Positions 41,935 through 64,000 of a stretch of 64,000 bases of DNA are shown here, in pieces. How positions within the stretch are numbered: the stretch's first letter is position 1; each line of letters begins with the position of its first letter. The stretch spans positions 3,569-67,568 of the forward strand of contig CAYTYP010000022.1 of the NCBI GenBank assembly GCA_964441405.1, given 5' to 3'. The stretch is from an uncultured Acidobacteriota bacterium (lineage in GTDB: Bacteria; Acidobacteriota; UBA6911). The position numbers and the translations under genes are program-made. The notes beneath the pieces are model-generated. The model was not told the DNA's origin. It saw only the letters and a program-made list of their open reading frames with translations, and ran no database searches.

Positions 41935-44303
41935 AGCCTTGGTTCCGGCGCTGCCGCTTCAATAACAATCGCTGCTTCCTTTAACCCGGCGGCCGAAGCG
42001 GACACCTTAATTTTCCCGCGGATCGCGCTCGCTTTAATCATTGCATAGCAGCGGCCCTGGTAGGCTCGACGCTCCGAAGCCTGAAAGGATTCGGAGCTGG
42101 AATTATCGCCGCTATCCACGGCTGCAATCACTCCGGGCCCGCTGACCTTAAAGGAAACCAGATCGGATGCGCCGGGAACCTGAATCCCACTTTGATCGGT
42201 TATGGTCGCAGACACAAAGGCGACATCATCCCAGTCCTTGAGGAGTTTAGGCCTGTCCACCGTCAACATAATCTTGGCCGGCTTGCCCGCAGTGCGCAAC
42301 TCGTGCTCGGCGACCACGGCTCCCCGGTTCTTTCCAATCGCTTTCAAGGCGCCCGGCTCCCACCCGATGATCCAAACCCGCGGCGAGTCATCGGCGTTCC
42401 TCGGCTTGCCGCCAATCGATTTGCCATTGAGCAACAACTCGACTTCTTCGCAATTGCTGTAGGCTTCGATGGTTTCTTCATGCGGGCCGGAATCGGTTGG
42501 CGTCCAATCCGCCAACTGCGTTGGCCGGCCGATAAGCGCGGCAAATCCGGGATCTGTAGGAAGAGCTTGCGCCGGTTTAACGCGGCGGACTATATGGACA
42601 ACCGGCTGGTCGCTCCACCAGCTCTGGCGTTCATAGGCCATAGGCTTGATTTCGCCGGTGCGGTCGAGCAATCCGGAACCTGCTGCAATCATGGGCCACC
42701 CGAACGCCTCGCCCAGGTAATCGATGCCGCTCCAGAGAAATTGCCCTGCGTGCTGCACATGATCGCGGCCCACCAGCCATGTGGCCAGTTCATGTCTTTG
42801 CTCCGTGCCAATGATTTTGCGGGTAGGCTTGGCTTTCTGAGCCTCCAGAAGTTCAAGGTCCCGGTAGTTGGTACCCACAACATCCAACAAATCCGCAAGA
42901 CCGTTGTCGTAATCATGGCTCACATTCGGACGGAAGAGCCCCTGAGTCACCGGTCGCGAAGGATCAAATTGATGAAAGACTTCTACCAACCCGGCGAGAA
43001 TTCGTTTGGCCAGGTCTGCTTTGGGCGTGTCATGGATTTCGTTCCCGGCGCTGTAAAGGATTATGCTGGGATGATTGCGATCACGAAGCACTGTGTCACG
43101 GAGGTCAACCTTCGACCATTCGTTGAAGTACAGGTGATAGTCATATTTGGTTTTCCCTACCGTCCAGCAATCGAACAGTTCATCCATCACCAGAAAGCCC
43201 ATACGATCGCATAAATCAAGGAATTCCGGCGCAACCGGATTGTGCGCGGTCCGGATGGCGTTTACGCCCAATGCGCGCAACTGTTCCAATCGCCGCTCCC
43301 ACACTCGCAGCGGCACAGCCGCGCCAAATGCACTTCCGTCATGGTGCAGGCATACTCCTTTGATTTTAATATTTTTGTCATTCAGCCAGAACCCTGTTTC
43401 CGGAACAAAACGAGCGTTCCGAATGCCGAAGACCTCTGTATCGATATCAACAAATTTTGAGCCCGATTTAATTTGGAGTTGTGCATGGTAAAGATTCGGG
43501 GCGTCCAGCTGCCAGAGTTTGGGATTCGCAACAATGAATTCTTCCTGAAAATCAATCGCGCCTCCCGAAGCAATCGATTGAGTCTTTTTCCTGACGGGGA
43601 CATTCTTTATGCCCAAGGGTGAAACGATGCCGATCTGCAGCTCAATTTCAGAAGATTTATCCGATTGATTCACAATCCGGCCTTGAACGCGAACAACAGC
43701 CTCCGTCGCAGCAACCCGCGGCGTTGTAATGTAAGTTCCCCATTTAGCGAAATGTACAGGATTCAAAGCCCTCAACCGGACATGCCGATAAATACCGGCC
43801 CCGGTGTACCAGCGCGAGGCGGGCTGGCCCGAGTTATCGGCCCGTACAGCTAAGACATTGGTCTTGCCCTTCCCGATAACAAGATGCTCCGTCAGTTCAT
43901 ATTCGAAACTGACATACCCGTAGGGTCGTTTCCCCAGATGAACGCCGTTGATCCACACGTCGCTGTTGGCCATGACGCCGTCAAACTCGATAAAGACCCG
44001 GCGCCCGCCATACTCTTGGGTCAGAGAAAAATGCTTGCGATACCAGCCGACGCCCGCAGGCAGATAACCTCCGGCGCCGCCGGTCGGATTCTTAGCGGCA
44101 AATGGCCCTTCGATGCTCCAGTCATGCGGAACATCAACCGTCCGCCATTCCGAATCATCAAAGACAGCTTTTTCAGCGCCCTGAACGTCGCCTTTGTAAA
44201 AGCGCCATCCGGGATCAAACGATGGAACAATACGTACATCCGCGAATGCTGAGGATGCGCCTGAAATTAGGACCAGAAGAAAGATGCATGATCGTAGTTT
44301 CAT
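41928..44303 (-). CDS. glycoside hydrolase family 2 (beta-galactosidase-like, with DUF4982 region), secreted
   Basis: VPHDWSIEG, FDGVMANSDVW.NG, SRWYTGAGIYRHV, GVCLHHD, NAIRTAHNP, RDRNHPSI..YSAGNE and GQFLWSGIDYLGE motifs. Confidence 0.95.
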   Translation of the reverse strand: MKLRSCIFLLVLISGASSAFADVRIVPSFDPGWRFYKGDVQGAEKAVFDDSEWRTVDVPHDWSIEGPFAAKNPTGGAGGYLPAGVGWYRKHFSLTQEYGGRRVFIEFDGVMANSDVWINGVHLGKRPYGYVSFEYELTEHLVIGKGKTNVLAVRADNSGQPASRWYTGAGIYRHVRLRALNPVHFAKWGTYITTPRVAATEAVVRVQGRIVNQSDKSSEIELQIGIVSPLGIKNVPVRKKTQSIASGGAIDFQEEFIVANPKLWQLDAPNLYHAQLQIKSGSKFVDIDTEVFGIRNARFVPETGFWLNDKNIKIKGVCLHHDGSAFGAAVPLRVWERRLEQLRALGVNAIRTAHNPVAPEFLDLCDRMGFLVMDELFDCWTVGKTKYDYHLYFNEWSKVDLRDTVLRDRNHPSIILYSAGNEIHDTPKADLAKRILAGLVEVFHQFDPSRPVTQGLFRPNVSHDYDNGLADLLDVVGTNYRDLELLEAQKAKPTRKIIGTEQRHELATWLVGRDHVQHAGQFLWSGIDYLGEAFGWPMIAAGSGLLDRTGEIKPMAYERQSWWSDQPVVHIVRRVKPAQALPTDPGFAALIGRPTQLADWTPTDSGPHEETIEAYSNCEEVELLLNGKSIGGKPRNADDSPRVWIIGWEPGALKAIGKNRGAVVAEHELRTAGKPAKIMLTVDRPKLLKDWDDVAFVSATITDQSGIQVPGASDLVSFKVSGPGVIAAVDSGDNSSSESFQASERRAYQGRCYAMIKASAIRGKIKVSASAAGLKEAAIVIEAAAPEPRLP

Positions 44304-44368
44304 AATGGAGTATTATGCAAAAAAATGTCCGCAAATCTCTACAGATTTAAACGGATAGGAGGAATTTG

Positions 44369-47119: not shown

Positions 47120-47125
47120 TAGGTT

Positions 47126-47176
47126 TTAACCGCGGATTTTCACGGATTCATCTGTGTGGATTCGTAAAAATCCGCG
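47126..47176. repeat. nonamer/IR element (TAACCGCGGATTTT...AAAATCCGCG) between convergent genes
   Basis: 10-bp IR at 47131-47140 / 47167-47176 with internal CGGATT units. Confidence 0.7.
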
Positions 47177-47178
47177 CT

Positions 47179-48555
47179 TTACTCAGGAAAGCGGTCAAAG
47201 GTGCGATCGATTTTCTTGCCGCGAAGGTGCTTGTCAAAAAAATCCATAATCGCGGTCCAATCTTCCGGAGTGAACGCGTGCCCATGCTTGGCATAATTCA
47301 CGCCCAGCCGGTCCTTCCCATCCAATAGAGCATAGGCGGGTTGAGCGCCGATAAAGGATTGCCGGACCGCTTCCGGAAGAGAAATAGTGTCCGTCTCGCC
47401 TTCCAGCGCAATGAAAGGCCGGGGCGCCGCAAGCGCAAGAAACCAGTGTTGATCGAAAGGCAGCTTATCTACCTGGCCCCAGAATTCATGCAGGTTTGGT
47501 GAAAACCAATTAGGGTATTTCTTCTGCATGATATCGAGTGTTTCACTTTTACGCGGGCCGGTGAAGCGATAGGCCCCGATGCCGCCTCCTCCGGTAACCA
47601 CAGGCGCGCCCATCAGGCGCTCGTCAAACGCCGCCGCGACCATAGCGGACTTGCCGTTGCGCGATGCGCCGGTGATGATGAGCTTGGTTTTATCGATAGC
47701 CGGATCCTTCTCCAGAAAATCGGCCACCCGGGAAGCGCCCCAAGCCCAGCCGGCGAGTATGCCCCAATCATAGCCGGGGTATGCAGGATAAAACCGGGTA
47801 TTGCGGAAAGCCCAACTGCCGTCAAGATTGCGCAGCGTCGTGTCCTCGGCGCAGTCGTTGGGATTGAATACTGCCAGCCCATAACCGCGGCGGAACACAT
47901 CCGCGTTCTGGGCCGCCATTGATTGCGCGGTCACCGCTCCGCCAAAAAACCCGGGAACGGCTTTGCCGGCAGGAGCCGAAGTTTTTGCCTCTGTTCCAGG
48001 CGCAGGACCAACGAGGAGCAGGACGTCCTGGCCACGTCCCTGGTTCGGTCCTTGCGGCAGAGTCGGCAATGGATCCGCTCCGGGAGGAGTCCCGCTCTGC
48101 AGAATGATAGTGGGGAACGGGCCCCCTTCGACAGGCGTGAAAACGCCTATATTCAGACTTAGCTTTTCCGCAGGCCCAAAGGTCAAACGCACCAGACGGT
48201 ATTGGACTTTGCCATCAAGCACAATTTCCGATTTGATCTCTTTTCCTTTCACGTTGCCGGGCGGCGGAGGCATCTGTCCGACGGCATAATATTCCAGGAT
48301 CTTTTTTATTTCTTCCCGGCGCTTCTGCCATTGTTTGCGGGTTTCAACCTTCTTCCCGTCGTTCATCGTCATTACATCCGGCATTTGTTTGCGAACGGGC
48401 AACTCGCGGACTCCGGGCAAAATCCCCATCGCGGTCTTTATTCGCGGGATCGGGATCTCCTTCGGGTCCGGTCCAACAACGGCGCCCGGGTCCTGCGCTT
48501 GAGCTAGACATGCGGTGGCGGCCGCCAGTATACAAAGCTTTTTTAAGTATTTCAT
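47179..48555 (-). CDS. carbohydrate esterase family 15 (glucuronoyl esterase-like), secreted
   Basis: WGILAGWAWGASR..DFL, nucleophile motif GASRNGK, DQHWFLALAAPRP and a C-terminal HGH. Confidence 0.85.
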   Translation of the reverse strand: MKYLKKLCILAAATACLAQAQDPGAVVGPDPKEIPIPRIKTAMGILPGVRELPVRKQMPDVMTMNDGKKVETRKQWQKRREEIKKILEYYAVGQMPPPPGNVKGKEIKSEIVLDGKVQYRLVRLTFGPAEKLSLNIGVFTPVEGGPFPTIILQSGTPPGADPLPTLPQGPNQGRGQDVLLLVGPAPGTEAKTSAPAGKAVPGFFGGAVTAQSMAAQNADVFRRGYGLAVFNPNDCAEDTTLRNLDGSWAFRNTRFYPAYPGYDWGILAGWAWGASRVADFLEKDPAIDKTKLIITGASRNGKSAMVAAAFDERLMGAPVVTGGGGIGAYRFTGPRKSETLDIMQKKYPNWFSPNLHEFWGQVDKLPFDQHWFLALAAPRPFIALEGETDTISLPEAVRQSFIGAQPAYALLDGKDRLGVNYAKHGHAFTPEDWTAIMDFFDKHLRGKKIDRTFDRFPE

Positions 48556-48637
48556 ATTGGGGTTTTCCTATTTGAACAGATTCAAGCAGTACTATAATTC
48601 AGGACGACGTCAGTTGAGCAAATTATTGGAGGAATAA

Positions 48638-49393
48638 ATGACCCGGTCCATGAAACAACTACTCGCAGTCGCCCTCCTGTTTATTTGCAACCTGGTATTC
48701 CCGCAACAGAACCGTCCTATTCATATTTTTATGATCGGCGACTCCACCATGGCCAATAAAAAGCCGGAAACAGAGCCGGAACGGGGATGGGGACAAATGC
48801 TGCAGTCTTTTTTCAACGATACGGTGAACGTCTCCAATCATGCCGTGAATGGAAGAAGTTCGAAGAGCTTCATCGATGAAGGGCGTTGGCAGGTTGTCCT
48901 GGACAGCCTGCAATCCGGCGATTATGTCATCATCCAATTCGGGCATAATGACCAGAAACCGGATCTGCCGCGGCATACCGATCCCTATACGACGTATAAG
49001 AACAACCTCGAAAAATTTGTTCAGGATACACGCGCGAAGGGCGCCTCTCCGATTTTATGCACGTCCATTATTCGTCGCAAATTTGATGAAAAAGGAGATC
49101 TTATCCAAACGCTTGGGGAATACCCTGAAGCGGTGCGCCAAGCAGCAAAGGAACTGAAAGTTCCTTTGCTGGATCTTGAACTCAGGACAAAAAAACTGAT
49201 ATCGGAACTCGGTCCTGAAAAATCCACATCTCTCTTTCTACATGTGACTCCCGGTGCATACCCGAACCGTCCAAACGGATCGCAGGACGACACACATTTG
49301 AATGTCGAAGGCGCTACTACCGTAGCTCGTATGGCAATTAAAGAAATCCAGGATTTTAAATTGCCTTTATTAAAACACCTGAAAAGCAATTAA
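48638..49393 (+). CDS. rhamnogalacturonan acetylesterase (CE12, SGNH)
   Basis: IGDST, GWGQ, NHAVNGRSSKSF, QFGHND and DDTH motifs. Confidence 0.92.
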   Translation: MTRSMKQLLAVALLFICNLVFPQQNRPIHIFMIGDSTMANKKPETEPERGWGQMLQSFFNDTVNVSNHAVNGRSSKSFIDEGRWQVVLDSLQSGDYVIIQFGHNDQKPDLPRHTDPYTTYKNNLEKFVQDTRAKGASPILCTSIIRRKFDEKGDLIQTLGEYPEAVRQAAKELKVPLLDLELRTKKLISELGPEKSTSLFLHVTPGAYPNRPNGSQDDTHLNVEGATTVARMAIKEIQDFKLPLLKHLKSN

Positions 49394-49445
49394 CCGCAGA
49401 TCCACACGGATGCACGCAGATCGCAGAATCCGTATGCGCGGTTAA
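49390..49445. repeat. CGCAGAT nonamer element bounded by TTAACCGC / GCGGTTAA
   Basis: The terminal IR includes the TAA stops of both convergent genes. Confidence 0.75.
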
Positions 49446-50692
49446 TTTTTCAGGCCGGAACCGGTGGTGTCCGTAGTGGACACCACCGGGCCGGTGAAAC
49501 CGGTCACATTAATACCGCGCAGAACCGCGTTTCGGATGTTCACCAACGTGATCCCTTTTTGACAATTTCCCGTGATGTTCAGCAGGGACAAGCCTGCAAT
49601 CGGTTTCTCGGCCGCTACCTTAATGACTTCGGCTAGAGTCGTAACGTCCTTGATCCGAATATTGGAAAAAAAGACATTTCGGAGAAGAGGGAATCCAAGG
49701 TCGCCCTCCACTGTGTCATCAGGAGTGCTCTGATTGCCGCCGCTCTTCGTGTTGATACACAAGAATCCGCCATTAGCGACATCGAGATCTTCTCCGGTAA
49801 TGTTCTCGATAACGCCCGCTCGTCCTGTGCGGGTTTTTATATAGATGGCATACGTGCGGCTGTGCGTGAATTTTGTCTTCTCGATCCGCACATTCCGGAT
49901 GCCTCCGGAAGTTTCACTGCCGATGCCGATACAGGCAAAATACCCGCCGCCCAGAACGCAGCGCGTGATCAACACATCCTCCGTTGGCTTGCCGACGCGG
50001 GCGCCATTCATGCCTCTGCCGGATTTGAGACTGATGGCGTCATCCCCGGTATCGATATCGCAACCTTCAATCCGAACATTCTTGCAGGAATCCACGTCAA
50101 TGCCATCGCGCGTATTGCGAATGTTCAGATTCCTGATCACGACGTTGGCGCAGTAGGTGGGGTGAGTCGCCCATGTGCCGTCGTGCGTAACGGAGAAACC
50201 TTCCCATCGAACATCCGTGCATGAAATAGGTTCAAGAACCGGCGCGCCACGGATGCCCTTTCCGAAGGCAACGGCGCGATTGCCCTGAATGAGGCCGGGA
50301 CCTACAATCCCTGTATGATCGACATTCCCGGCATAGATAAGCGCTCGATGACCTTGCTGCCAGCGGCCTTCCCAGCGAATATCCATAACCGGATAATCAT
50401 CCAGATCGGGACTGCCCTTTAAAACACTGTCTTTTTCGAGCCGCAGGATTGTGCGGTTGCCTATCTGGATGCTGCCAATGAGATATTTGCCGGCGGGGAC
50501 TAAAACTTCACCGCCTCCGGAGACCGCACAAGTATCCAGGGCCTTCTGAAATGCGGCAGTGTCCTTTGTCGCCCCATCGCCGGTTGCGCCGAAGTTACGC
50601 ACATTGAATGTAAGTTTTGTCGGTATTGCACCGTTTGCGAACAATCCGAACGAAAGAAGCAAAGCCAAACGCAACAATTTCATTATTTTCAT
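49442..50692 (-). CDS. glycoside hydrolase family 28 (polygalacturonase-like), secreted
   Basis: FGATGDG..KDTAAFQKALD, RDGIDVDSC, TGDDAISLKSG, IGIGSE and YIKT motifs. Confidence 0.9.
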   Translation of the reverse strand: MKIMKLLRLALLLSFGLFANGAIPTKLTFNVRNFGATGDGATKDTAAFQKALDTCAVSGGGEVLVPAGKYLIGSIQIGNRTILRLEKDSVLKGSPDLDDYPVMDIRWEGRWQQGHRALIYAGNVDHTGIVGPGLIQGNRAVAFGKGIRGAPVLEPISCTDVRWEGFSVTHDGTWATHPTYCANVVIRNLNIRNTRDGIDVDSCKNVRIEGCDIDTGDDAISLKSGRGMNGARVGKPTEDVLITRCVLGGGYFACIGIGSETSGGIRNVRIEKTKFTHSRTYAIYIKTRTGRAGVIENITGEDLDVANGGFLCINTKSGGNQSTPDDTVEGDLGFPLLRNVFFSNIRIKDVTTLAEVIKVAAEKPIAGLSLLNITGNCQKGITLVNIRNAVLRGINVTGFTGPVVSTTDTTGSGLKN

Positions 50693-50713
50693 ACGATCAT
50701 GCGATATCCATCA

Positions 50714-51622
50714 TTATTTTTGTGGTCCGATCCCAAATCCCATTTCCTTAAGCCAGCGAGCGCATTCCGAAGTCCATGGATGGCGGCTGTCCGGATCCCA
50801 TTGAGAGCTTCCTAAGCCCATGCCATGTCCTCCTTTGGTATAAATGTGAAGCGCAAAAGGGACTTTATGGCTCCGGAGCGCGGCGGCGAAATTCAATGCA
50901 TTTTCAACCTTCACAGCGGTATCTTCATAAGTGTGCAGGATAAAAACGGGAGGCGTATCGGCGGTCACCTGTTTTTCATTTGAAAGCAGCTCGACCAAAC
51001 TGGGATCGGGATTGTCTCCGAGAAGGTAGCGCTTCGAACCGAGGTGCGTATCGGGCCCCATCGTGATGACGGCATAGCAAAGAATTCCGAGATTGGGCCT
51101 CGAGCTGACGCGATCCATCGGATCAGCGGCGTCCGGATTTCCTGAATCAAAATGGGTGAGCGCAGTGGCGGCCAGGTGCCCGCCGGCGGAGGATCCCATA
51201 ACCCCGATACGGTTGGGATCAAGATTCCACTTTTGCGCATTTGCGCGCACATACCGGATGGCGCGCTGTACGTCCTGCATCATTGCAGGATGTCGATAGT
51301 CATTGGAACCAAGGCGGTATTTCAGAACGAAGCCAGTAACGCCTTGTTCATTCAGCCATAGTGCGTAATGAAAACCTTCATGAGGAGCCAAAGCCGCATA
51401 ACCGCCGCCCGGGCAAATAATGACAGAAGCGCCCGTCGCCTTTCCCGCGGGAGCAAAATAGGGAGTCAATGTCGGAATGTCTTTTGCGTCTTTTCCCAAC
51501 GCCCCGGGAGCGTCACCGGTCCAAAGCGGGAACTCCATGCGCGGCAATTGAACGGGTTGGATCTGCGAAACTGCACTGCCGATAGCGGTCAAAAATACTA
51601 CCATCGAAATAAATTTCCCCAT
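50714..51622 (-). CDS. alpha/beta-hydrolase esterase (BD-FAE-like), secreted
   Basis: ICPGGGY, VLKYRL, GSSAGGHLA, D..V and GGHGMG motifs. Confidence 0.9.
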   Translation of the reverse strand: MGKFISMVVFLTAIGSAVSQIQPVQLPRMEFPLWTGDAPGALGKDAKDIPTLTPYFAPAGKATGASVIICPGGGYAALAPHEGFHYALWLNEQGVTGFVLKYRLGSNDYRHPAMMQDVQRAIRYVRANAQKWNLDPNRIGVMGSSAGGHLAATALTHFDSGNPDAADPMDRVSSRPNLGILCYAVITMGPDTHLGSKRYLLGDNPDPSLVELLSNEKQVTADTPPVFILHTYEDTAVKVENALNFAAALRSHKVPFALHIYTKGGHGMGLGSSQWDPDSRHPWTSECARWLKEMGFGIGPQK

Positions 51623-51752
51623 GTCGAGCCTCCCCATGCACATGCGGGCGAAACGCCTAATGGTGCAAAGTTGATGAGGATTTTATTCGCACTTGGATCA
51701 GGAAGCCAATACAATTAACATCCAAGATCGATGATTCTAAAGGAGCATTCCC

Positions 51753-52910
51753 ATGACGAAAGCTTTAAAATTTTTCGCTCTCATATCCTTCGCAGCTATT
51801 CCGGCGTTAAGCCCGGCTGCGACGGCTCGAATAACAATAAAAGCAGCCAACAAACTGCAAGTAGAACGAAAGAATCAGACCCTCGAGCTTTCTTTCAAGG
51901 ATCTTATGCCTCTTGGCGAAAAGGATCTGACCAAAATCCACGTTCAGAATGCGGCCGGCGAAGAAATTCTCTGCCAGGCTGTAGATGCGGATGGCGACTA
52001 CACTCCCGACCTGGTGATTTTCCAGGCTGACTTTTTACCCGGAGAGACGAAGGTTTTCACTGTATCGCCGGGCAATAAATGGATTTACTCCCAGGATCAA
52101 TTCAAAGCATACGGCCGCTTCGTGCGCGAGCGATTTGACGATTTCGCGTGGGAAAACGACCGGATCGCCCACCGGATGTACGGCAAAGCCCTGGAAACCT
52201 GGGTGCGCGAACCGCTTACCAGCAGTACGGTAGACATCTGGTCCAAACGCACGCCGCGGTTGGTCATTAACAATTGGTATATGACGGACAACTATCACGT
52301 CGACCATGGCGAGGGGGCGGATTTCTATTCCGCAGGCCTCAGCCGCGGATGCGGCGGCAACGGGCTATGGGCGGAAGACAAACTTTGGCTGTCCCGCAAT
52401 TTCGTCAATTCGCGCGTGCTGGCGAACGGTCCTATACGCGTGATGTTTGAACTGACTTATGAACCCTTCGAGGTGAAGGGCTCAAAAGTTTCGGAAGTAA
52501 AGCGGATCACTCTCGACGCCGGGCAGAATCTTGATCATTTTCAGAGCTTCTATAAATCCCAGAACGGTGAAACCCTGATATCCGCCATAGGGCTTAAAAA
52601 AAACGCAAGCGATCAAAAGGAGTTCAATGCGGAACATGGCTGGTTGGCCCAATGGCAAAAAGGGGAAAAGAATATGGGCAACCAGGGATTGGCAATCATT
52701 ATCGATCCCAAGATATTTGTTCGCGAGACGGAGGACCGCCTGGACCGGCTGGTGCTCACAAAAACAGATGTGAAGGGCGCCGTTTCGTACTGGGCAGGAT
52801 TTGTCTGGGATAAAACCGGCGTTGACTACAATTCATGGAAAACCTATGTGGATCATTTCGCGCAAGGTCTCCTTTCTCCCATTGAAATAACCGTGTCGGA
52901 AGGCCAATAG
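51753..52910 (+). CDS. DUF4861 family protein, secreted
   Basis: ERFDDFAWENDRIAHRMYG, DIWSK, YHVDHGEGADFY..G...GCGG and GPIRVMFELTY motifs. Confidence 0.85.
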   Translation: MTKALKFFALISFAAIPALSPAATARITIKAANKLQVERKNQTLELSFKDLMPLGEKDLTKIHVQNAAGEEILCQAVDADGDYTPDLVIFQADFLPGETKVFTVSPGNKWIYSQDQFKAYGRFVRERFDDFAWENDRIAHRMYGKALETWVREPLTSSTVDIWSKRTPRLVINNWYMTDNYHVDHGEGADFYSAGLSRGCGGNGLWAEDKLWLSRNFVNSRVLANGPIRVMFELTYEPFEVKGSKVSEVKRITLDAGQNLDHFQSFYKSQNGETLISAIGLKKNASDQKEFNAEHGWLAQWQKGEKNMGNQGLAIIIDPKIFVRETEDRLDRLVLTKTDVKGAVSYWAGFVWDKTGVDYNSWKTYVDHFAQGLLSPIEITVSEGQ

Positions 52911-57814: not shown

Positions 57815-60800
57815 CTAGAAGCTCCATCGAATGTTTGTTTGCACGCTGCGCATCGATCTTGGCGCTGTGGGAAGCCCAAACTGCGCACTTCCTACGGCGG
57901 CATTCCAGGACGTGAAGGTAACGTGATTGAGCGCGTTATTAACATTAATATTCAGGTTGATGCTGGTCCGGTCGCTGGTTCGAAACGAACGGCCTAATGC
58001 AGCGCTCAGGGTAAATTGAGAAGGCCCGAGGATGGAATTGCGGCCTGCATTGCCCCAATGCCCCGGCGTCGGAGCCTTATAGGCCGCGGGATTCAAATGC
58101 AAACCCGCCGGCGCTGCATAAACAGCCTCTCCTGTGCGATCGGGGCGCATGGGCCCCGTCACACCGGTGCCGGAAATTGCAAAGGAATACACAGGCGTCT
58201 GCGGCAAACCGCTTCCGGCATTGATCCGACTGGAGATTGTCCAATTTTTATAAAGAGCTCCCTTCCACTTTTTTAAAAACGTCCCGTCTTGAACTCCCAT
58301 ACCGGTCGTGTACTGGAATTGAATATCCGCCGCATGCCTTTGATCAAAACTCGAAAGCGCCCGCTCTGCGCCGGGATTCCGCCAATCTTGCGCAGTGAAA
58401 ACTCCGGATGCTCCCGACGTTCCCGGCGCCGCATCGTCGATGGACTTCGAAAAAGAGTACTGCATCGTCGCGCTGAAGCCCTTGTGCAGGCGACGGCGCA
58501 GCTGAATGGTTCCGGCGTCGCGATGCGAACTTCCGTGGGAAGTCAGATAACGGAATCCGCTGGGGCATGACGGACAAGGGTCGACCGATCCCGCGGGATA
58601 GGAATTCGGTAGAATTTCCTGCAGCGCATTCCTTCCCCTCGTCCCCTGATAAATCGTTGTCAACTGCAGTGCGCCGGGCAGATCGATCTGGATGGAAAAC
58701 TGCCAGGTATGCACATACCCGATCCGCAAGTTCGGATCTACTGCAAAAGTGTTGGTTGTTTGGTTCGGGGCCGCGTTGAATCCGTCCGCAAGCGTCAACG
58801 GCGTTGCAGCGGCATTCTGCAAGCTCAAACTTTTGGAAAGCGGCGACTGTTGCGCCATCTGCAGCGCAATCGACAGGTACGGAGAAGAATTGGAGTAAAC
58901 GCCGTAGCCCCACTTCAAAACCAGGGAGGAGGAAGCAATCGGCTTCCAGGCCGCGCCTATGCGAGGCTGAAGAGCATCTTTGTCGGGATGGACCAGTGAA
59001 TCGGGGTATTGCGCCCCGGTGAGCCGGCCGACCGGTTGGTTCGCCACAACCGGAGTCGCCGCCGAATAATCCGAGACCAGGTCGAGATTGACGAGGCGGC
59101 CATAACGCTCCGTGACGGGAGCCCAGTATTCCCAGCGCAGACCCAGTTTAAGCGTAAAACTGCGCGTAAGCCTCCAGTCGTCCTCAATGAAAGCATTGTA
59201 GGAAGAAAAACGGAAATATTTGTCCGCATTGCCGAACGCAATCGACGCCGTATCCGGAATTCCCAGCAGAAAACCCGCAAAATCGTTGCGAGCTCCCGCC
59301 GGCGGGATGCCGGGCGACGATAAGTCCAGAGTCGACGCTCCATTGAATTGGAACGATCCGCGGGGATTCTGCTGTTCCAGGCGATTATCCTGCTGCCTCG
59401 AATACTCCGCTCCGAAAGAGACGGTGTGGTTGCCGCGATTCCAGTAGCCGGACGCCGTCAACTGAGCTGTCTGGCTGCGATTGGAGGCCGGCGACGCGTC
59501 ATAGAGACTCGCCAGGCCGCTGGAAAAATAAAGCGCCGGGGGGCCCCAGTTCACAGGCTCCTGATTGTTGCCGGCAATTCCGGCAAGACCGGAAATATTC
59601 TCACGACCGGAGAAGAAAGGAATGCTTCTGCCCGATTGACGGCTGAACTGGCCGTTCAACGTCATGCTTAACCGTGGAGTGAGGTTGCGCCGCCAGCCCA
59701 GAAACGCCCCGGAGCTCTGAGAACGGGAAGCGTCGATGAAACCAAGCAGCGTCGTATTTTCGGACCGGGAATTGGTGTAAGAAAAACGTCCAAAGACCTG
59801 ATTTTTTCCGATGGTGTCATCCATGCCGACGCTTATGCCATCCATATGCGACGCGCTCTCTGCCGCAACCTGATAGTTATATTGCGCGTTCCCGGTAAAA
59901 TTGGGCTGGGGGTATAGGTTCAGCAGGGCTTTCGCCTGCCGGCGGATCCGCTCCTCGGGGATGCGGTTGTTTGGGAAGAGTTTATTGTCCTCCGGATCAA
60001 AGATCCTTCCAGGAGCCTTTGATAAATCTCCCTTCCTTTCCTCGAGAGTGGGAACGAGGCCGGTCAGGGTTTGGACATCGCGATTGCGCGCAAAGTTATA
60101 GCCGAGATAAAAATCGGGGCCGTCCCGCACCAAGCGCGGAATGCGCACCGGGCCCGAAAGAAAAAAATCGCCTCCCCAGCGGTTGTATCCCGGCCTGGGA
60201 GTGTCTATTCCGGACAGTGAATACGAACGGGCGTTGAGCGCAGAATTGTTGATGTTGAAGCTGAGGCTGCCCCGGTAGGGGGACCCGATTAGATTCCGGA
60301 AATTTCCAAAAGCCCGGCTCTGCGCAAAAGAAGAACTCGCACCGTTGTTGGCGGATCCGCTTATCGTGAGCCCGTCGGCCGCACGCTGATTAAGCTCGAC
60401 CGGATCGCCAAGATTGTCGGGCGCAGCAGAAACAATGCTTGCAGCGGCTTGCGGAGAAGCATTCACTTCCGTGCGTTGAAACGGAGTTTTCGTATTGGCG
60501 GGCGCCGGCGCTCCTTTTTTGGAATTTGCACTCTTGGCCGGGCCGGCAACCGCCGCGCTTTCCGGCGCCGGAGAAGGCGCCGCCTGGAGCCCCTGGATCT
60601 GATCGATAGGCAGAAGCTTCAATTCCCATTGCCCGGCTGCAGCGCCGGGTCCAATCGTCAAATCCTGCTGAACGGATGAGAACGCCTGCATCTCGACCCG
60701 GATATTCCAGACGCCGTCGGCCAGCTCGGGGAACGAGTATCCACCTCGCACGTCTGTGATGGCGGAGAATTTCTGATCGCCGCGCGATGCTGCAACCACA

Positions 60801-60940
60801 GCTCCCGGAACTCCCAAACCATTGAAGACGACTTGTCCGCGATGCTCGGCGGCGTTCACAGCAGCGATGGCAAGAAACAAGGCGAACCCGATCGGGAGAA
60901 ATACTCGAATTTTTCCGGCGCCTGCCAATACCTTATTCAT
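57815..60940 (-). CDS. carboxypeptidase-regulatory-domain / TonB-receptor-like beta-barrel protein
   Basis: Signal peptide, G.VPGAVV.A...TDVRG.YSF, NSALNARSYS, EDDWR...FTLKLGLRWEY, YSFSKSIDD motifs and terminal IRWSF. Confidence 0.88.
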   Translation of the reverse strand: MNKVLAGAGKIRVFLPIGFALFLAIAAVNAAEHRGQVVFNGLGVPGAVVAASRGDQKFSAITDVRGGYSFPELADGVWNIRVEMQAFSSVQQDLTIGPGAAAGQWELKLLPIDQIQGLQAAPSPAPESAAVAGPAKSANSKKGAPAPANTKTPFQRTEVNASPQAAASIVSAAPDNLGDPVELNQRAADGLTISGSANNGASSSFAQSRAFGNFRNLIGSPYRGSLSFNINNSALNARSYSLSGIDTPRPGYNRWGGDFFLSGPVRIPRLVRDGPDFYLGYNFARNRDVQTLTGLVPTLEERKGDLSKAPGRIFDPEDNKLFPNNRIPEERIRRQAKALLNLYPQPNFTGNAQYNYQVAAESASHMDGISVGMDDTIGKNQVFGRFSYTNSRSENTTLLGFIDASRSQSSGAFLGWRRNLTPRLSMTLNGQFSRQSGRSIPFFSGRENISGLAGIAGNNQEPVNWGPPALYFSSGLASLYDASPASNRSQTAQLTASGYWNRGNHTVSFGAEYSRQQDNRLEQQNPRGSFQFNGASTLDLSSPGIPPAGARNDFAGFLLGIPDTASIAFGNADKYFRFSSYNAFIEDDWRLTRSFTLKLGLRWEYWAPVTERYGRLVNLDLVSDYSAATPVVANQPVGRLTGAQYPDSLVHPDKDALQPRIGAAWKPIASSSLVLKWGYGVYSNSSPYLSIALQMAQQSPLSKSLSLQNAAATPLTLADGFNAAPNQTTNTFAVDPNLRIGYVHTWQFSIQIDLPGALQLTTIYQGTRGRNALQEILPNSYPAGSVDPCPSCPSGFRYLTSHGSSHRDAGTIQLRRRLHKGFSATMQYSFSKSIDDAAPGTSGASGVFTAQDWRNPGAERALSSFDQRHAADIQFQYTTGMGVQDGTFLKKWKGALYKNWTISSRINAGSGLPQTPVYSFAISGTGVTGPMRPDRTGEAVYAAPAGLHLNPAAYKAPTPGHWGNAGRNSILGPSQFTLSAALGRSFRTSDRTSINLNINVNNALNHVTFTSWNAAVGSAQFGLPTAPRSMRSVQTNIRWSF

Positions 60941-61245
60941 TTAATTCTCCGACGACTTTTCAATACTCTTTGGTGCTATTGCCGGCGTATCTCTATATAA
61001 AATGAGGATTATAGAGGTTTTAAGCCATCCAGCGTTTATTTACGGTTCAAAGGCCGCGCAACAGGTCATGAACATGCCCAATATTACGGATAGGTTTTGT
61101 CTATAGTTCCCATAAATAATAAGATTATATCCTTATCCGCAACAGGAACGCTTATAAGACGTATCCTATTATTCTCCAGCAAATCAATATGTTTCACGAG
61201 AAGGCATTTTATTTCAAAAATAATGATGTGAATTGCAGGGCGGGA

Positions 61246-61276
61246 ATCGCGAAGGCGCCAGGAGCGCCTTCGCGAT
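61246..61276. terminator. hairpin downstream of the AOR-like gene
   Basis: ATCGCGAAGGCGC / GCGCCTTCGCGAT 13-bp stem with no clear U-tract. Confidence 0.5.
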
Positions 61277-61289
61277 CAAAATCCGAGGA

Positions 61290-63335
61290 TTATCCGAGTT
61301 TGTTTTTGCTTTTCAGCAGAGTTGCGACTTTGCCGAGTTTCATCTTCTCGAGCGTCGCGCCGGTCGGGTAGCCGTTATCGGGATTGTAGCCTTCGAACTT
61401 GTAGAATTTGGTTTTGAAATCTTCGACTTTCGCCCGATCCAGTTTGCGGCCTTTTCCCGTAGCATACTTCCATTTGCCGTCTTCATACATCGTCATATCG
61501 TGACCCATACTCGGTTTGTCGTAGACATAGTCGGGAAATACTTCCATGTCCCGATGCCTGCCTTGCAGCACCCAGATGGCTCGATCCAGAGTATAGATCT
61601 TATGTCCTATCTCCATGTAATCGGCGAATTTGAGATTTTTTCCGGTAACGGCGTTCCAGAATTTAGGTTCCGCCTGAGGCGTGGGCCCTCTCCTGTCGGC
61701 CGTATTATTGGTGATGCACATCGGCCAGCGCCAGCCGCAGAAGCCGCCGGCCCCGACCCAGAATTTTTCATAATGCTTGATCCACGCGACCTGCTTGACC
61801 TTGGAATCCGAGTAGATCCCGGTAGGCCCTTCGCTGTGATCCACCATGAATGGGTCGCCCTGGTAGGGTTCCATCGCATCCGTGTACAGCTTGGCGCACT
61901 CTTCGGCTGTCAGGTAGGGATCGCCGGACCAGGCCATCCAGTGGATGGGATAGTTGGACATCATGTGCAGCATAAGGTCGCGTTCTCCCAGAAGGGAGCC
62001 GAAACCCCATTCCGCCTCGATCGCCGGATCATAATGATTCGCGGTTCCCCAGTAGCACAAGCTCAGGTCGCCGCTGTTTACATCCTTCTTATACCGTCCG
62101 ATTTTTTCCGCGAATCGGGCGCAACCCTCGGCCAAATCGTTGCCGACTCCCTTGCGTAGCGCGATCTGACGCATCAGGGCCTCGGCGTATCCGAACGTTC
62201 CGGTCTGGTCCAGAGGCAGGTCGGTATCGATCTGCTTCCCTTTCCCGAGGACTCCTGCTTTATAAAGAAATTGGACATAGCTCAAAAGCGGCATCAACTG
62301 CCAGTGCCCCAATCCGTACTTCTGCATCAAATCGTTGCCCTGGCGCGTAAACTTCGTGGATCCTTCGACGCTGATCACCATCGTGCCGGCGCAAACCGAA
62401 TCGTTGCTGTCGCCGGTGGCCAATCTCATACGGCATCCTCTGGGACACGAGGCGCAGGCTGCTGCGCGCGCCGGCGTGAGCGGGATATCGCGATTGAGCA
62501 CATTGCCGCCGCTCGGGCGGCCGCTGATCAACGCATAGGGCCCTCCGGCTCCGAACCTCGCAGCTTCACGGGGATTGTCCACGTCCCACTGGAATTGACG
62601 GAACCAGAGCCTGGCCGCCATAAATGCCTTTGGATTGGCAATAGGAACATCTCCGGATCCGATAGCGCTGATCGCTTTCAGCTTCTTGGATCCAAAAACT
62701 CCGCCGAAACCGCACAGGGCCGCCTGGGACCCGGGGCCATGGAGAAGGCAGCCAAGGCGGCTCTTGTTTTCTCCCGCGGGACCGCAGCAAACGACCGCCG
62801 GAGTCTGGGTGGTAAAACAGTTCTCGGCAAGTTGCGCCCATTCGCCATATTTCAAACTCGGGACTACGCGCCGGGAAATTTCTTCCTGGGTGTCCCAGGT
62901 GTCCATTCCCCATATGCCTTTGGCGCTTTCGATCTTGACCTTGTCGTCGACTATGTTGATCCATACGGGCTCGTCCGAAGCCCCTTCCACGACGATGCCA
63001 TCCCATCCGGCGAACTTCAATTGAGCGGTGAAACGCCCGCCGAAATTGCTGTGGCCGAACCATTCCACGGGATACAGCATGGGCCCAAGGCCTTGCACCT
63101 CGCATCTGCCGGAGCCCGGCATAAAGGTGCCGGAGAAAGGAGACGCCATCATGATGATCAGGTTCCTGGGATCGAAAGCCTCAAAAGGCAATTGGTCGCC
63201 AACCAGATCAAAGAAAACAGCGGAACCTATTCCGTGACCGCCGCCGAACTCCTCATACTTTGCAGTATCGATTTGAGTGATCGCCTTGGTAGTCAGGTTG
63301 ACTCTTAATATTTTACCGGTATATCCGCCTGCCAT
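61290..63335 (-). CDS. aldehyde:ferredoxin oxidoreductase (tungsten oxidoreductase) family protein, divergent
   Basis: GYTGKILRVNLT, SN.GG.F...LKFAGWDGIVVEG, CGPAGEN, GSKKLKAI, CASCPRGC, R.G.G..LAEG and a C-terminal G.P...TLE motif. Confidence 0.9.
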   Translation of the reverse strand: MAGGYTGKILRVNLTTKAITQIDTAKYEEFGGGHGIGSAVFFDLVGDQLPFEAFDPRNLIIMMASPFSGTFMPGSGRCEVQGLGPMLYPVEWFGHSNFGGRFTAQLKFAGWDGIVVEGASDEPVWINIVDDKVKIESAKGIWGMDTWDTQEEISRRVVPSLKYGEWAQLAENCFTTQTPAVVCCGPAGENKSRLGCLLHGPGSQAALCGFGGVFGSKKLKAISAIGSGDVPIANPKAFMAARLWFRQFQWDVDNPREAARFGAGGPYALISGRPSGGNVLNRDIPLTPARAAACASCPRGCRMRLATGDSNDSVCAGTMVISVEGSTKFTRQGNDLMQKYGLGHWQLMPLLSYVQFLYKAGVLGKGKQIDTDLPLDQTGTFGYAEALMRQIALRKGVGNDLAEGCARFAEKIGRYKKDVNSGDLSLCYWGTANHYDPAIEAEWGFGSLLGERDLMLHMMSNYPIHWMAWSGDPYLTAEECAKLYTDAMEPYQGDPFMVDHSEGPTGIYSDSKVKQVAWIKHYEKFWVGAGGFCGWRWPMCITNNTADRRGPTPQAEPKFWNAVTGKNLKFADYMEIGHKIYTLDRAIWVLQGRHRDMEVFPDYVYDKPSMGHDMTMYEDGKWKYATGKGRKLDRAKVEDFKTKFYKFEGYNPDNGYPTGATLEKMKLGKVATLLKSKNKLG

Positions 63336-63337
63336 AA

Positions 63338-64000
63338 TTACTCGCCTCCTTTCACTTTCCATGCGAGATCCGCCTTCGGCACGATCGTGCTGTTGTCCAC
63401 CAATCCGAGGTTGTACCAATGATCGTTCCGCAGGTTGATATCGTAACCATCCGTCTCTTCCTGATCCGGCATGTCGGAAACGAATTTAATCGCCATCATC
63501 GGGCAGGATTCCACGCAAGCTTGCTTGCCGCCGGGGCCTCCCTTTTCATCCCAATAAGGAGTGTCTATGCAAAGATCGCACTTGGAGGATTTCCCTTTGC
63601 CGTCGATGACGACCCAGACGGTCCGGTGCGGCTGCTGAGGACACATTTTGATGCAGGTTTTACAGCCGATGCATTTGGCGCTGTCAATCCTTCGAACGTT
63701 GCCGTTGGCCGCGTCCACGAAGGCGGCGCCCACCGGACAATTCTGAACGCAGACCGGGGCCTTGCATTGACGACAGGGCGCCATTTTTACATCGTTGGGG
63801 AATTTGGCGAATGCGTCTTGAATAATCTGAATGCGCGAGCGCGACAGACTCTGAACTCCATAATGGACCAGCGAGCAGCTGAGCATGCAGGTCGTGCAAC
63901 CGGCGCATTTCTTGCTGTCGTAAACCAGATAGCCTTTGGATGCGGGAATAGGCGTTCCCTCTGCGGCAGGTGCAATTGCGGGCGTTGTGGCGATGATTAC
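63338..64000 (-). CDS. 4x[4Fe-4S] electron-transfer subunit (DmsB/NrfC-like), 5'-truncated by the window end
   Basis: The frame is open to 64000 and carries CAGCTTCMLSC, CRQC...CVQNCP, CIGCKTCIKMCP and KCDLC...CVESCP, preceded by VIIATTPAIAPAA. Confidence 0.9.
   Translation of the reverse strand, partial: VIIATTPAIAPAAEGTPIPASKGYLVYDSKKCAGCTTCMLSCSLVHYGVQSLSRSRIQIIQDAFAKFPNDVKMAPCRQCKAPVCVQNCPVGAAFVDAANGNVRRIDSAKCIGCKTCIKMCPQQPHRTVWVVIDGKGKSSKCDLCIDTPYWDEKGGPGGKQACVESCPMMAIKFVSDMPDQEETDGYDINLRNDHWYNLGLVDNSTIVPKADLAWKVKGGE

What the first reader, a model, noticed from the sequence alone, without database searches (positions are those of the whole stretch)
61290..64000. Divergent AOR-family oxidoreductase lacking canonical cofactor motifs, with a possibly Tat-exported polyferredoxin partner
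Seen: the [4Fe-4S] Cys set is retained (CASCPRGC, GFC). The positions of the usual D-x-x-G-x-D, second D-x-x-G-x-C, EYE and AAGRG motifs instead read QKYGLG, GAGGFC, DSVCAG and AALCG. The upstream Fe-S subunit has a hydrophobic Ala/Pro-rich stretch that looks like the end of a Tat leader. Known: those acidic motifs bind tungstopterin/Mg and substrate in Pyrococcus AOR/FOR, and most characterised AORs are cytoplasmic. Inference: an uncharacterised, possibly periplasmic WOR clade with altered cofactor binding or substrate.
Basis: partly seen in the sequence, partly recalled or inferred. Interest (0 to 1): 0.65.

Follow-up and report, generated by a model that had tools for sequence, protein, structure and literature searches.

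The report
Exported cysteine-type tungsten/molybdenum oxidoreductase pair
Two adjacent genes encode an iron-sulfur protein with an export signal and a large pterin-enzyme subunit of the aldehyde-oxidoreductase family; it belongs to the little-studied branch that uses a cysteine at the metal, so it is probably a periplasmic redox enzyme of unknown substrate rather than an ordinary aldehyde oxidoreductase.

Summary
On the minus strand a 5'-truncated 4x[4Fe-4S] protein (63338-64000) is followed 2 nt later by a 681-aa AOR/WOR-family protein (61290-63335). Against P. furiosus AOR, the four cluster cysteines are kept. Y312/E313 become C315/A316, D338/D343 become Q338/G343, D489 becomes G528, and R182/R186 become S203/L207.

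These changes are not loss of cofactor. C315 aligns with the metal-ligand cysteine of benzoyl-CoA reductase BamB (C322) and E. coli YdhV (C336). Almost all of the ~100 nearest cluster representatives carry that cysteine and lack the aldehyde-oxidising Glu/His.

The Tat signal cannot be seen in the window. 117 of the 120 nearest Fe-S homologues have RRxFL, and the other three are truncated.

The protein falls in a well-supported clade separate from YdhV and BamB. That clade is known only from uncultivated Acidobacteriota and Desulfobacterota and is under strong purifying selection. Deeper relatives add a small protein, and two of three a cytochrome b-like membrane protein.

Tat-linked "Class V" WORs were described in 2026, so this is a new member of a known but functionally unsolved kind. 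Substrate and metal remain unknown.

The parts
63338..64000 (-). Fe-S subunit (WorS-like, NrfC/DmsB-type four-cluster protein). It is 5'-truncated by the window edge: 220 codons are visible and about 35-40 N-terminal codons, including the RR motif, are missing.
   Evidence: Pfam Fer4_10/Fer4_7/Fer4_11. The best NCBIfam similarity is to NrfC, DmsB, TtrB and HybA, all below cutoff. Four Cys motifs are present: CAGCTTCMLSC at 63875-63907, CRQCKAPVCVQNCP at 63734-63775, CIGCKTCIKMC at 63641-63673, and CDLC...CVESCP at 63500-63580. Full-length orthologues are 250-265 aa.
63956..64000 (-). Visible tail of the predicted Tat signal peptide (VIIATTPAIAPAAEG): the end of the hydrophobic region and an Ala-rich cleavage region.
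   Evidence: It aligns with ...SRRDFLVTGGxVVAVDALIATTPAKAVAA... of orthologues P0271-P0277 and L004-L017. 117 of the 120 nearest homologues carry RRxFL.
63345..63349 (-). Ribosome-binding site GGAGG for the AOR-like gene, lying inside the end of the Fe-S gene. The Fe-S stop TAA (63338-63340) is 2 nt from the ATG.
   Evidence: Sequence read directly. The tight spacing suggests the two genes are co-transcribed and translationally coupled.
61290..63335 (-). Catalytic subunit (WorL-like), 681 aa, AOR/WOR family, cysteine-ligand type, with no signal peptide of its own.
   Evidence: Pfam AFOR_N and AFOR_C. AlphaFold2 (AF2) model with pLDDT 92.7 and pTM 0.94. Foldseek finds only AOR-family structures, TM 0.68-0.81. 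dN/dS is 0.035-0.077 against orthologues.
62433..62456 (-). CASCPRGC: three of the four [4Fe-4S] ligands (C294, C297, C301).
   Evidence: Aligned with AOR C288/C291/C295. C294 is invariant and C297/C301 are at least 90% conserved in 53-54 diverse relatives.
62385..62402 (-). DSVCAG, with C315 (62391-62393) as the probable protein ligand to W/Mo. It replaces the Y312/E313 'EYE' of aldehyde-oxidising AORs.
   Evidence: It sits in the same alignment column as BamB C322 and YdhV C336. The Cys is present in almost all of the ~100 nearest cluster representatives; 2 lack it.
62307..62324 (-). QKYGLG: first pterin-binding motif position (AOR D338-E-L-G-L-D343), with both Asp residues replaced.
   Evidence: Relatives have D/N/Q/H/T at position 338 and mostly N at 343. 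G343 is specific to the window's tight clade.
61737..61754 (-). GAGGFC: second pterin-binding motif position (AOR D489-S-A-G-L-C494). The Asp is replaced by G528, and C533 is the fourth [4Fe-4S] ligand.
   Evidence: C533 is invariant. G528 is specific to the tight clade; relatives have D/N/Q/E/H.
62712..62729 (-). SQAALC: position of the AOR H-R182-A-A-G-R186-G segment (pterin phosphate and Mg region), with both Arg residues replaced (S203, L207).
   Evidence: Most Cys-type relatives also lack these Arg residues. C208 is not conserved: it is Gly in P0093, P0100, P0106, P0117 and P0120.

Best explanation
The two genes form one operon for a heterodimeric redox enzyme that works outside the cytoplasmic membrane.

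The small subunit carries four [4Fe-4S] clusters and a twin-arginine (Tat) signal peptide. The large subunit has no signal peptide. It would fold and receive its cofactors in the cytoplasm, bind the small subunit, and be exported with it ('hitchhiking', as in [NiFe] hydrogenases and E. coli PaoABC).

The large subunit is an AOR/WOR-family protein of the cysteine-ligated branch. It should hold one [4Fe-4S] cluster (C294, C297, C301, C533). It should also hold a bis-pyranopterin tungsten or molybdenum cofactor with C315 as a fifth sulfur ligand, as in BamB and YdhV.

It lacks the Glu313/His448 pair that aldehyde-oxidising AORs use, so it most likely does not oxidise aldehydes. It would catalyse another two-electron reaction on a periplasmic substrate. 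Electrons would run along a five-cluster wire to or from a partner that is not encoded next to it, such as a soluble cytochrome or a membrane quinone-reactive protein.

Shown here: family and fold, residue replacements, operon structure, Tat motifs in orthologues, clade position, purifying selection.

Inferred: cofactor occupancy, Cys ligation, co-export, direction of electron flow. Substrate and metal are unknown.
For: Family and fold:
- Pfam match, high-confidence AF2 model, and only AOR-family structures recovered.
- Cluster cysteines kept. C315 sits in the BamB C322 / YdhV C336 column. E313 and H448 are absent.
- PMC12096430 states that YdhV C336 and BamB C322 ligate the metal and that both clades lack the second-shell residues.
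- BamB itself has T at position 338 and S at position 182 yet binds W-bis-MPT, Mg and [4Fe-4S] (PDB 4Z3W; PMC12096430). Variation at these positions is therefore compatible with a full cofactor.

Export:
- S/T-RR-x-F-L plus a hydrophobic stretch plus AxA in 58 of the 62 genome loci with an adjacent Fe-S gene, and in 117 of 120 nearest homologues.
- The same motif occurs in the partners of 38-46%-identical relatives P0122, P0124, P0128 and P0134.
- It is absent from the partner of outgroup P0176.
- The large subunit starts at the first residue of the AOR fold, with no leader.

Operon: 2-nt gap, with the RBS inside the upstream gene.

Functional constraint: dN/dS 0.035-0.077 at dS of about 1-2.

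Respiratory-type ancestry: the Salinarchaeum locus L088 has a DmsR-like regulator, Tat-FeS, AOR, a small protein and a cytochrome b. Related small proteins occur in L084 and L086, and a cytochrome b-like protein in L084.

Class V precedent: PMC13328260.
Against: - The window's own RR motif is off the edge and was not recovered.
- No cofactor, metal or localisation data exist for any member of this clade.
- The tight clade has replaced three Asp (338, 343, 489) and two Arg (182, 186). That is more than BamB or YdhV, so cofactor binding could be altered or weakened.
- No membrane anchor, cytochrome, chaperone, or Mo/W transport or biosynthesis gene lies in the 64-kb window or in the flanks of 80 related loci. 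The electron partner is therefore a guess.
- 15 paralogous loci have the large subunit without any Fe-S gene within about 8 kb. Not every family member can be exported in the simple way proposed.
- No transcript evidence.
Confidence: 0.7

Rival explanations
1. It is an ordinary cytoplasmic aldehyde:ferredoxin oxidoreductase, as public databases name its relatives, with a polyferredoxin partner (Class II WOR type).
For: JGI and NCBI name the homologues 'aldehyde:ferredoxin oxidoreductase'. The domain architecture and fold are those of AOR.
Against: The catalytic E313 and H448 are absent, and a Cys sits at the metal-ligand position. The partner family carries a strictly conserved Tat motif. The Class V enzyme CsWOR41L showed no activity on 46 aldehydes (PMC13328260). 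The NCBIfam AOR and GAPOR equivalog models are far below cutoff.
Confidence: 0.05
2. It is a membrane-bound respiratory complex of the YdhYVWXUT / Class V type. Its further subunits (cytochrome b or NrfD-like anchor, chaperone) are encoded elsewhere in the genome, so the enzyme is quinone-coupled rather than soluble.
For: Deeper members of the same superclade keep a small accessory protein. Two of the three examined (L084, L088) also keep a cytochrome b-like membrane protein next to the pair. E. coli ydh has YdhU, a cytochrome b. Class V is defined as membrane-associated (PMC13328260).
Against: No homologue of those accessory genes occurs in the window or in the flanks of any of 80 tight-clade loci. 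The Fe-S subunit has no C-terminal membrane helix. The protein is not in the YdhV clade. This is a variant of the best explanation rather than a contradiction of it.
Confidence: 0.15
3. The large subunit has lost the pterin cofactor. It is an Fe-S-only or non-catalytic protein, because five canonical pterin or phosphate contacts (R182, R186, D338, D343, D489) are gone.
For: All five positions are replaced, and G343 and G528 cannot hydrogen-bond through side chains. No Mo/W genes lie nearby.
Against: R77 (= R76), N97 (= N93), G341, G531, C315 and all cluster cysteines are kept. dN/dS is about 0.05, with 67-93% identity across two phyla. The model is confident throughout domains 2 and 3. BamB and YdhV also deviate at several of these positions yet bind the cofactor (PMC12096430, PMC9103625).
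Confidence: 0.07
4. It is a BamB-like dearomatising (benzoyl-CoA-type) reductase.
For: It shares the Cys ligand and lacks second-shell residues. Many hosts are Desulfatiglans-like aromatic degraders. Foldseek TM to BamB is 0.71-0.77.
Against: BamB lies in a different part of the NJ tree, on its own long branch. The Tat-exported partner places the enzyme away from CoA thioesters and low-potential cytoplasmic donors. No bamC-I-like genes are adjacent.
Confidence: 0.03

Closest known systems
E. coli YdhV with YdhY/YdhX (ydhYVWXUT operon); 'Class V WOR', clade 41 (PMC13328260; Reschke et al. 2019 as cited there)
   Same: AOR-family large subunit alignable over its full length (27% identity, E 9e-53). 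Same Cys at the metal-ligand column (YdhV C336 = C315), and no Glu/His second shell. The Fe-S gene lies directly upstream, and the system includes a Tat-signal Fe-S protein (YdhX has TRRKF). Function unknown.
   Different: Below the YdhV model cutoff (245 vs 868 bits). A separate clade in 40 of 40 bootstraps, and never sister to YdhV. Two genes instead of six, with no YdhW/T/U-like genes. YdhV keeps D338 (DDYGLW), whereas here it is Q338; position 489 is N in YdhV and G here.
CsWOR41 (Cetobacterium somerae Class V WOR; PMC13328260)
   Same: A small operon with a Tat-signal WorS and a WorL. It incorporates W preferentially and has no aldehyde activity, which shows that such enzymes are real metalloproteins of unknown function.
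   Different: It has a third gene (WOR41W) and neighbouring tup, tat and moeA genes, none of which is seen here.
[quoted passage not shown]
   Same: The only solved structure with the Cys ligand (C322 = C315). It also deviates from the AOR motifs (T at 338, S at 182). Foldseek TM 0.71-0.77.
   Different: It is cytoplasmic, part of the BamBCDEFGHI complex, and acts on a CoA thioester. It keeps D343, D489 and R186. It lies on a different branch of the tree.
Pyrococcus furiosus AOR and FOR (PDB 1AOR, 1B25)
   Same: Same three-domain fold (TM 0.72-0.81), the same [4Fe-4S] cysteines, and R76 and N93 conserved.
   Different: Cytoplasmic, with no protein ligand to W. E313/H448 and both D-x-x-G-L-(C/D) motifs are intact there and replaced here.
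Tat 'hitchhiker' export of cofactor-loaded partners ([NiFe] hydrogenase HybO/HybC; E. coli PaoABC). Cited from general knowledge, not tested here.
   Same: The signal peptide is on the Fe-S subunit only, and the cofactor-bearing catalytic subunit lacks one.
   Different: The catalytic subunits belong to unrelated families. Co-export is inferred here, not shown.

Membership tests
AOR/WOR superfamily (tungsten-containing oxidoreductases) | AFOR_N plus AFOR_C domains and the three-domain AOR fold | tested here: met
   Pfam 3e-50 and 4e-30. AF2 pLDDT 92.7. Foldseek TM 0.68-0.81 to 1AOR, 1B25, 9MQX, 9G7J, 4Z3W, 6X1O and 8C0Z, and to nothing else.
AOR/WOR superfamily | Four Cys ligands of the [4Fe-4S] cluster (AOR C288, C291, C295, C494) | tested here: met
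   C294, C297, C301 and C533.
AOR/WOR superfamily | Two D-x-x-G-L-(C/D) pterin-binding motifs and the Arg182/Arg186 phosphate contacts | tested here: not met
   The motifs read Q338-K-Y-G-L-G343 and G528-A-G-G-F-C533, with S203 and L207 in place of the Arg residues. Only the Gly residues and the Cys are kept. The same positions vary throughout the Cys-type branch.
AOR/WOR superfamily | Bound bis-pyranopterin W (or Mo) cofactor with bridging Mg | not testable with these tools
   Needs metal and pterin analysis. R77 (= R76) and N97 (= N93) are conserved.
Aldehyde-oxidising AOR/FOR/GAPOR type | Second-shell catalytic residues Glu313 and His448 (AOR numbering) | tested here: not met
   A316 and L456. 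The NCBIfam GAPOR model scores 25 bits against a cutoff of 1300.
Cysteine-ligated branch (BamB / YdhV type) | Cys at the BamB C322 / YdhV C336 position, together with absence of the Glu/His shell (PMC12096430) | tested here: met
   C315 is in that column. The Cys is at least 90% conserved in 53-54 diverse relatives.
YdhV clade proper (NCBIfam NF007354 / PRK09849 equivalog) | Score above the curated cutoff and grouping with E. coli YdhV | tested here: not met
   245 bits against a cutoff of 868. 27% identity. In the NJ tree the YdhV clade and the window's superclade are each recovered 40/40 and are never sisters.
Class V WOR (PMC13328260) | [quoted passage not shown] | tested here: inconclusive
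   The window copy is truncated before the motif. It is met in 58 of the 62 orthologous or paralogous loci with an adjacent Fe-S gene, and in 117 of 120 nearest homologues.
Class V WOR (PMC13328260) | At least one further subunit, and membrane association | tested here: not met
   No conserved third gene in the window or in 80 loci. Deeper relatives (L084, L086, L088) do have a small protein, and L084 and L088 also have a cytochrome b-like protein.
Class V WOR (PMC13328260) | Membership of phylogenetic 'Clade 41' of Schut et al. 2021 | not testable with these tools
The paper's text and supplements list no Acidobacteriota or Desulfatiglans.
Class II benzoyl-CoA reductase BamB | Association with BamC-I and a cytoplasmic location | tested here: not met
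   The partner is Tat-type, no bam-like neighbours are present, and the protein sits on a different branch.

The most novel reading that the evidence does not exclude
The tight clade containing this gene has replaced all three pterin-anchoring Asp and both Arg residues. It occurs as 3-4 paralogues per genome, as bare two-gene cassettes, in anaerobic Acidobacteriota and Desulfobacterota. It may be a soluble periplasmic W/Mo enzyme family with a re-wired pterin pocket that catalyses a reaction not yet known for any pyranopterin enzyme. The chemistry might involve sulfur or selenium, given the periplasmic UxxC selenoprotein candidate and the rhodanese next to some paralogues. If so, it would extend 'Class V' WORs beyond clade 41 and beyond membrane-bound complexes.
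Probability: 0.2. Interest if true: 0.65.

Novelty: new member of a known kind. Interest (0 to 1): 0.4.

Why it matters
AOR-family enzymes with a cysteine at the metal are numerous in anaerobes. Only one reaction is known for them: benzoyl-CoA dearomatisation by BamB. No Tat-linked (Class V) member has an assigned function.

This gene pair shows that such exported enzymes also exist in a well-separated, strongly conserved clade of uncultivated Acidobacteriota and Desulfobacterota, often in several copies per genome. That suggests a family of periplasmic redox reactions still to be identified in anoxic soils, sediments and bioreactors.

In practice, database labels of 'aldehyde:ferredoxin oxidoreductase' for these genes are probably wrong and should not be used in metabolic reconstructions. 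A cultured relative, Salinarchaeum sp. IM2453, offers an experimental entry point.

Tried and rejected
- Extending the contig to see the window's own RR motif failed. Exact-protein look-ups for the AOR and for the neighbouring outer-membrane protein found nothing. An exact 26-mer scan of metagenome contigs found nothing. Logan contigs of two bioreactor runs reach about 1 kb beyond the window end, but the tool does not print their sequence. A homology search with the partial Fe-S protein returned no identical full-length protein; the best was 93%.
- No RNA runs were found.
- Single-sequence PDB searches aligned only the N-terminal domain. A broad family profile was needed to align domains 2 and 3.
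- Foldseek could not say which AOR-family structure is closest, because all TM scores were similar.
- Gene-neighbourhood clustering of 80 loci found no conserved partner beyond the Fe-S gene. My crude ORF calling also produced antisense artefacts, such as 'family 8'.
- Pfam scans of about 30 window ORFs found nothing related to Mo/W, Tat or cytochromes.
- BLAST of the accessory proteins of distant relatives against YdhW, YdhT and YdhU gave no hits.
- Literature searches found no paper on this clade.
- I considered and rejected C208 (AALCG) as a functional cysteine, because it is Gly in many close paralogues.
Full report
**What is there**

The finding covers two co-oriented genes on the minus strand at the very end of the window.

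- The upstream gene (63338-64000) is cut by the window edge. The visible 220 codons start with VIIATTPAIAPAAEGTPIPASKGYLVYDSKKCAGC and contain four cysteine motifs typical of NrfC/DmsB/TtrB-type four-cluster proteins.
- Its TAA stop is followed after two bases by the ATG of a 681-codon gene (61290-63335). That gene's GGAGG ribosome-binding site lies inside the end of the upstream gene.
- The mechanical ORF list starts this second gene at a TTG at 63419. All homologues begin at M-x-GGYTGK, so 63335 is the real start.
- The 681-aa protein matches Pfam AFOR_N (3e-50) and AFOR_C (4e-30).

**Check of the observation**

Single-sequence searches against solved structures align only the N-terminal domain. 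A profile of 54 diverse relatives aligns P. furiosus AOR, FOR, a clostridial AOR and Geobacter BamB over their whole lengths.

I rebuilt those four sequences from the HMMER output. The AOR numbering reproduces the textbook residues R76, N93, R182, C288, C291, C295, E313, D338, D343, H448, D489 and C494, and BamB C322. I then aligned them with about 100 relatives.

| AOR residue(s) | Window residue(s) |
|---|---|
| C288, C291, C295, C494 | C294, C297, C301, C533 |
| Y312, E313 | C315, A316 (DSVCAG) |
| D338-x-x-G-x-D343 | Q338-K-Y-G-L-G343 |
| D489-x-x-G-x-C494 | G528-A-G-G-F-C533 |
| R182, R186 | S203, L207 (SQAALC) |
| H448 | L456 |
| R76, N93 | R77, N97 (kept) |

**What the replaced motifs mean**

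The decisive point is C315. It occupies the column of BamB C322, and in a direct BLASTP alignment it pairs with YdhV C336. A 2025 review states that these two cysteines are protein ligands to the W/Mo ion. It also states that both clades lack the second-shell residues of aldehyde-oxidising AORs (PMC12096430).

Almost all of the ~100 full-length representatives among the 150 nearest 50%-identity clusters in a 1.8-billion-protein library carry this cysteine; two do not. Within that radiation, positions 182, 186, 338, 343 and 489 vary freely. BamB has a solved structure with W-bis-pyranopterin, Mg and [4Fe-4S], and it has T at position 338 and S at position 182. YdhV reads DDYGLW and NAVTLC, and it binds a bis-Mo-pyranopterin (PMC9103625).

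The 'missing' motifs therefore mark a known sub-type with a different first coordination sphere. They are not evidence for a cofactor-less protein. The window's own tight clade does go furthest: G343 and G528 are specific to it.

**Is it a working gene?**

- An AlphaFold2 model built with 53 relatives is confident throughout (pLDDT 92.7, pTM 0.94).
- The model matches only AOR-family structures (TM 0.68-0.81).
- Against orthologues at synonymous divergence of about 1-2, dN/dS is 0.035-0.077.

**The Tat question**

The window stops before the motif. I could not extend it by exact look-ups, by a metagenome scan, or by laying Logan contigs, although contigs of two bioreactor runs do run about 1 kb past the edge. 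The indirect evidence is strong:

- The Fe-S partners of the 82%- and 89%-identical orthologues read ...GISRRDFLVTGGAAAAGTLIAGSHAQA... and ...RLSRRDFLVAGGAAAAADALIAATPASA....
- 62 of 80 related genome loci have the Fe-S gene directly upstream, and 58 of those show the RR motif even with crude ORF calling.
- 117 of the 120 nearest Fe-S homologues have RRxFL in the first 90 residues, and the other three are N-terminal fragments.
- The closest ones (...SRRDFLVTGGTVVAVDALIATTPAKAVAA...) run straight into the window's VIIATTPAIAPAAEG.
- The large subunit has no leader. It starts at the first residue of the AOR fold.

The likely route is co-export with the signal-bearing Fe-S subunit. Known precedents are hydrogenases and PaoABC; this is general knowledge and was not tested here.

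**Placement**

- NCBIfam's best hit is the E. coli YdhV model, at 245 bits against a cutoff of 868.
- Identity to YdhV is 27%, over the full length.
- In a neighbour-joining tree of 104 sequences, the window protein sits in a tight clade. Within that clade the 120 nearest homologues are 67-93% identical to the window protein.
- The tight clade is nested in a superclade of about 34 representatives at 36-48% identity.
- Both groups, and the YdhV clade, are recovered in 40 of 40 bootstraps. The superclade is never sister to YdhV, and BamB lies elsewhere.
- Four of four partners tested in the wider superclade have Tat motifs. The partner of an outgroup (P0176) does not.

**Host organisms and copy number**

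- Tight-clade members come only from MAGs/SAGs of Acidobacteriota (including UBA6911) and Desulfatiglans/Desulfobacterales, commonly 3-4 copies per genome.
- The superclade also includes Actinobacteria and Bacillota MAGs and one cultured haloarchaeon, Salinarchaeum sp. IM2453.

**Neighbourhood**

Only the Fe-S/AOR pair is conserved among the 80 loci. The window itself offers unrelated neighbours: a CarboxypepD_reg/outer-membrane barrel protein, a protein with no Pfam match, DUF3738, pectin-degradation genes and housekeeping genes.

Deeper relatives keep more:

- Salinarchaeum has a DmsR-like regulator, Tat-FeS, AOR, a 129-aa protein and a Ni_hydr_CYTB cytochrome b.
- L084 and L086 have homologous small proteins, and L084 also has a cytochrome b-like protein.
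- None of these accessory genes occurs in the window or in the tight-clade flanks.

This points to a quinone-coupled, respiratory-type ancestor. The window's form is reduced to two genes, and its electron partner is unknown.

**Comparison with the literature**

A 2026 classification defines 'Class V WORs' as enzymes whose WorS has a Tat signal. [quoted passage not shown] It states that no activity is known, and it reports that CsWOR41L binds W but oxidises none of 46 aldehydes (PMC13328260). Neither its text nor its supplements mention Acidobacteriota or Desulfatiglans.

The present gene pair fits the functional definition, by inference from orthologues. It lacks the third subunit and is not in the YdhV clade. 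Whether it falls inside 'clade 41' cannot be tested without that reference tree.

**Verdict**

1. The altered motifs are the hallmark of the already-recognised Cys-ligand branch.
2. Tat-linked WORs are now a described class.

I file it as a new member of a known but functionally unsolved kind. Metal, substrate, electron partner and actual localisation remain untested.

Noticed in passing
Related loci, e.g. L070:6248-7978, L078:1678-3405, L033:3889-5643, L039:7465-9207, L029:10724-12457(-): Family clustering suggests about 17 of 80 related loci carry two adjacent ORFs next to paralogous AOR genes. One is about 134 aa with a signal peptide, the other about 440 aa. In all 8 pairs checked they form one reading frame interrupted by a single in-frame TGA at a conserved G-[VI]-[AS]-G-TGA-x-x-C motif. 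This is a candidate periplasmic selenoprotein with a UxxC motif. Its N-terminal part weakly matches NCBIfam 'UGSC family (seleno)protein' (E 3.7e-6, below cutoff). In four loci a signal-peptide rhodanese follows. No SECIS search was done.
   Followed up: partly
L037, L057, L062, L064, L065, L067-L073, L075, L077, L078: Fifteen paralogous loci (66-76% identical large subunit) have no Fe-S partner gene within about 8 kb, and the large subunit has no leader. They occur in the same genomes as complete cassettes. How, or whether, these 'orphan' copies are exported is unexplained.
   Followed up: partly
L088:3554-8373 (Salinarchaeum sp. IM2453, CP081183.1); L084:3602-7659; L086:136-3496: More distant members of the same superclade have further genes. 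A conserved ~130-167-aa protein of no known family follows the Tat-FeS and AOR genes in all three loci. A cytochrome b-like membrane protein follows it in L084 and L088. In the haloarchaeon a DmsR-like HTH_10 regulator sits upstream. L084 and L086 also have a B12-binding radical SAM gene downstream.
   Followed up: partly
Loci L018-L024, L029, L046 versus L004-L017: Large subunits from Desulfatiglans/Desulfobacterota MAGs are 81-86% identical to those of Acidobacteriota. This is far closer than expected for two phyla and suggests recent horizontal transfer of the cassette. Single MAGs carry 3-4 copies, for example OY761556.1 with L008, L037, L040 and L065.
   Followed up: no
window 62653-62754 and 62857-62958: In the Logan contigs of two bioreactor metagenome runs that hold this sequence, the assembly breaks inside the AOR gene. 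Word depth jumps from about 7 to 25-30, and one contig joins 62708 to 63569. This is consistent with short stretches shared among paralogues tangling the assembly graph.
   Followed up: no
window 34888-39039 (+) and 57815-60940 (-): Two very large proteins (1383 and 1041 aa) combine a CarboxypepD_reg domain with an OMP_b-brl_4 outer-membrane barrel. This is typical of Acidobacteriota TonB-dependent-like transporters. The second one lies immediately downstream of the AOR gene but is not conserved next to it elsewhere.
   Followed up: no
window 41928-52910: A cluster of plant-cell-wall (pectin/rhamnogalacturonan-type) degradation genes: GH2, GH106 alpha-L-rhamnosidase, glucuronyl esterase, GDSL esterase, GH28, BD-FAE esterase and DUF4861.
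   Followed up: no
window 6839-8014 and 8438-9583 (+): Two tandem paralogous AAA_14 + DUF4143 ATPase genes.
   Followed up: no
window 61233-62159 (+) and 62271-63308 (+): Long ORFs (308 and 345 aa) lie antisense to the AOR gene. The same antisense ORF appeared as a spurious 'family 8' in related loci. They are best read as chance open frames opposite a conserved gene, not as genes.
   Followed up: no
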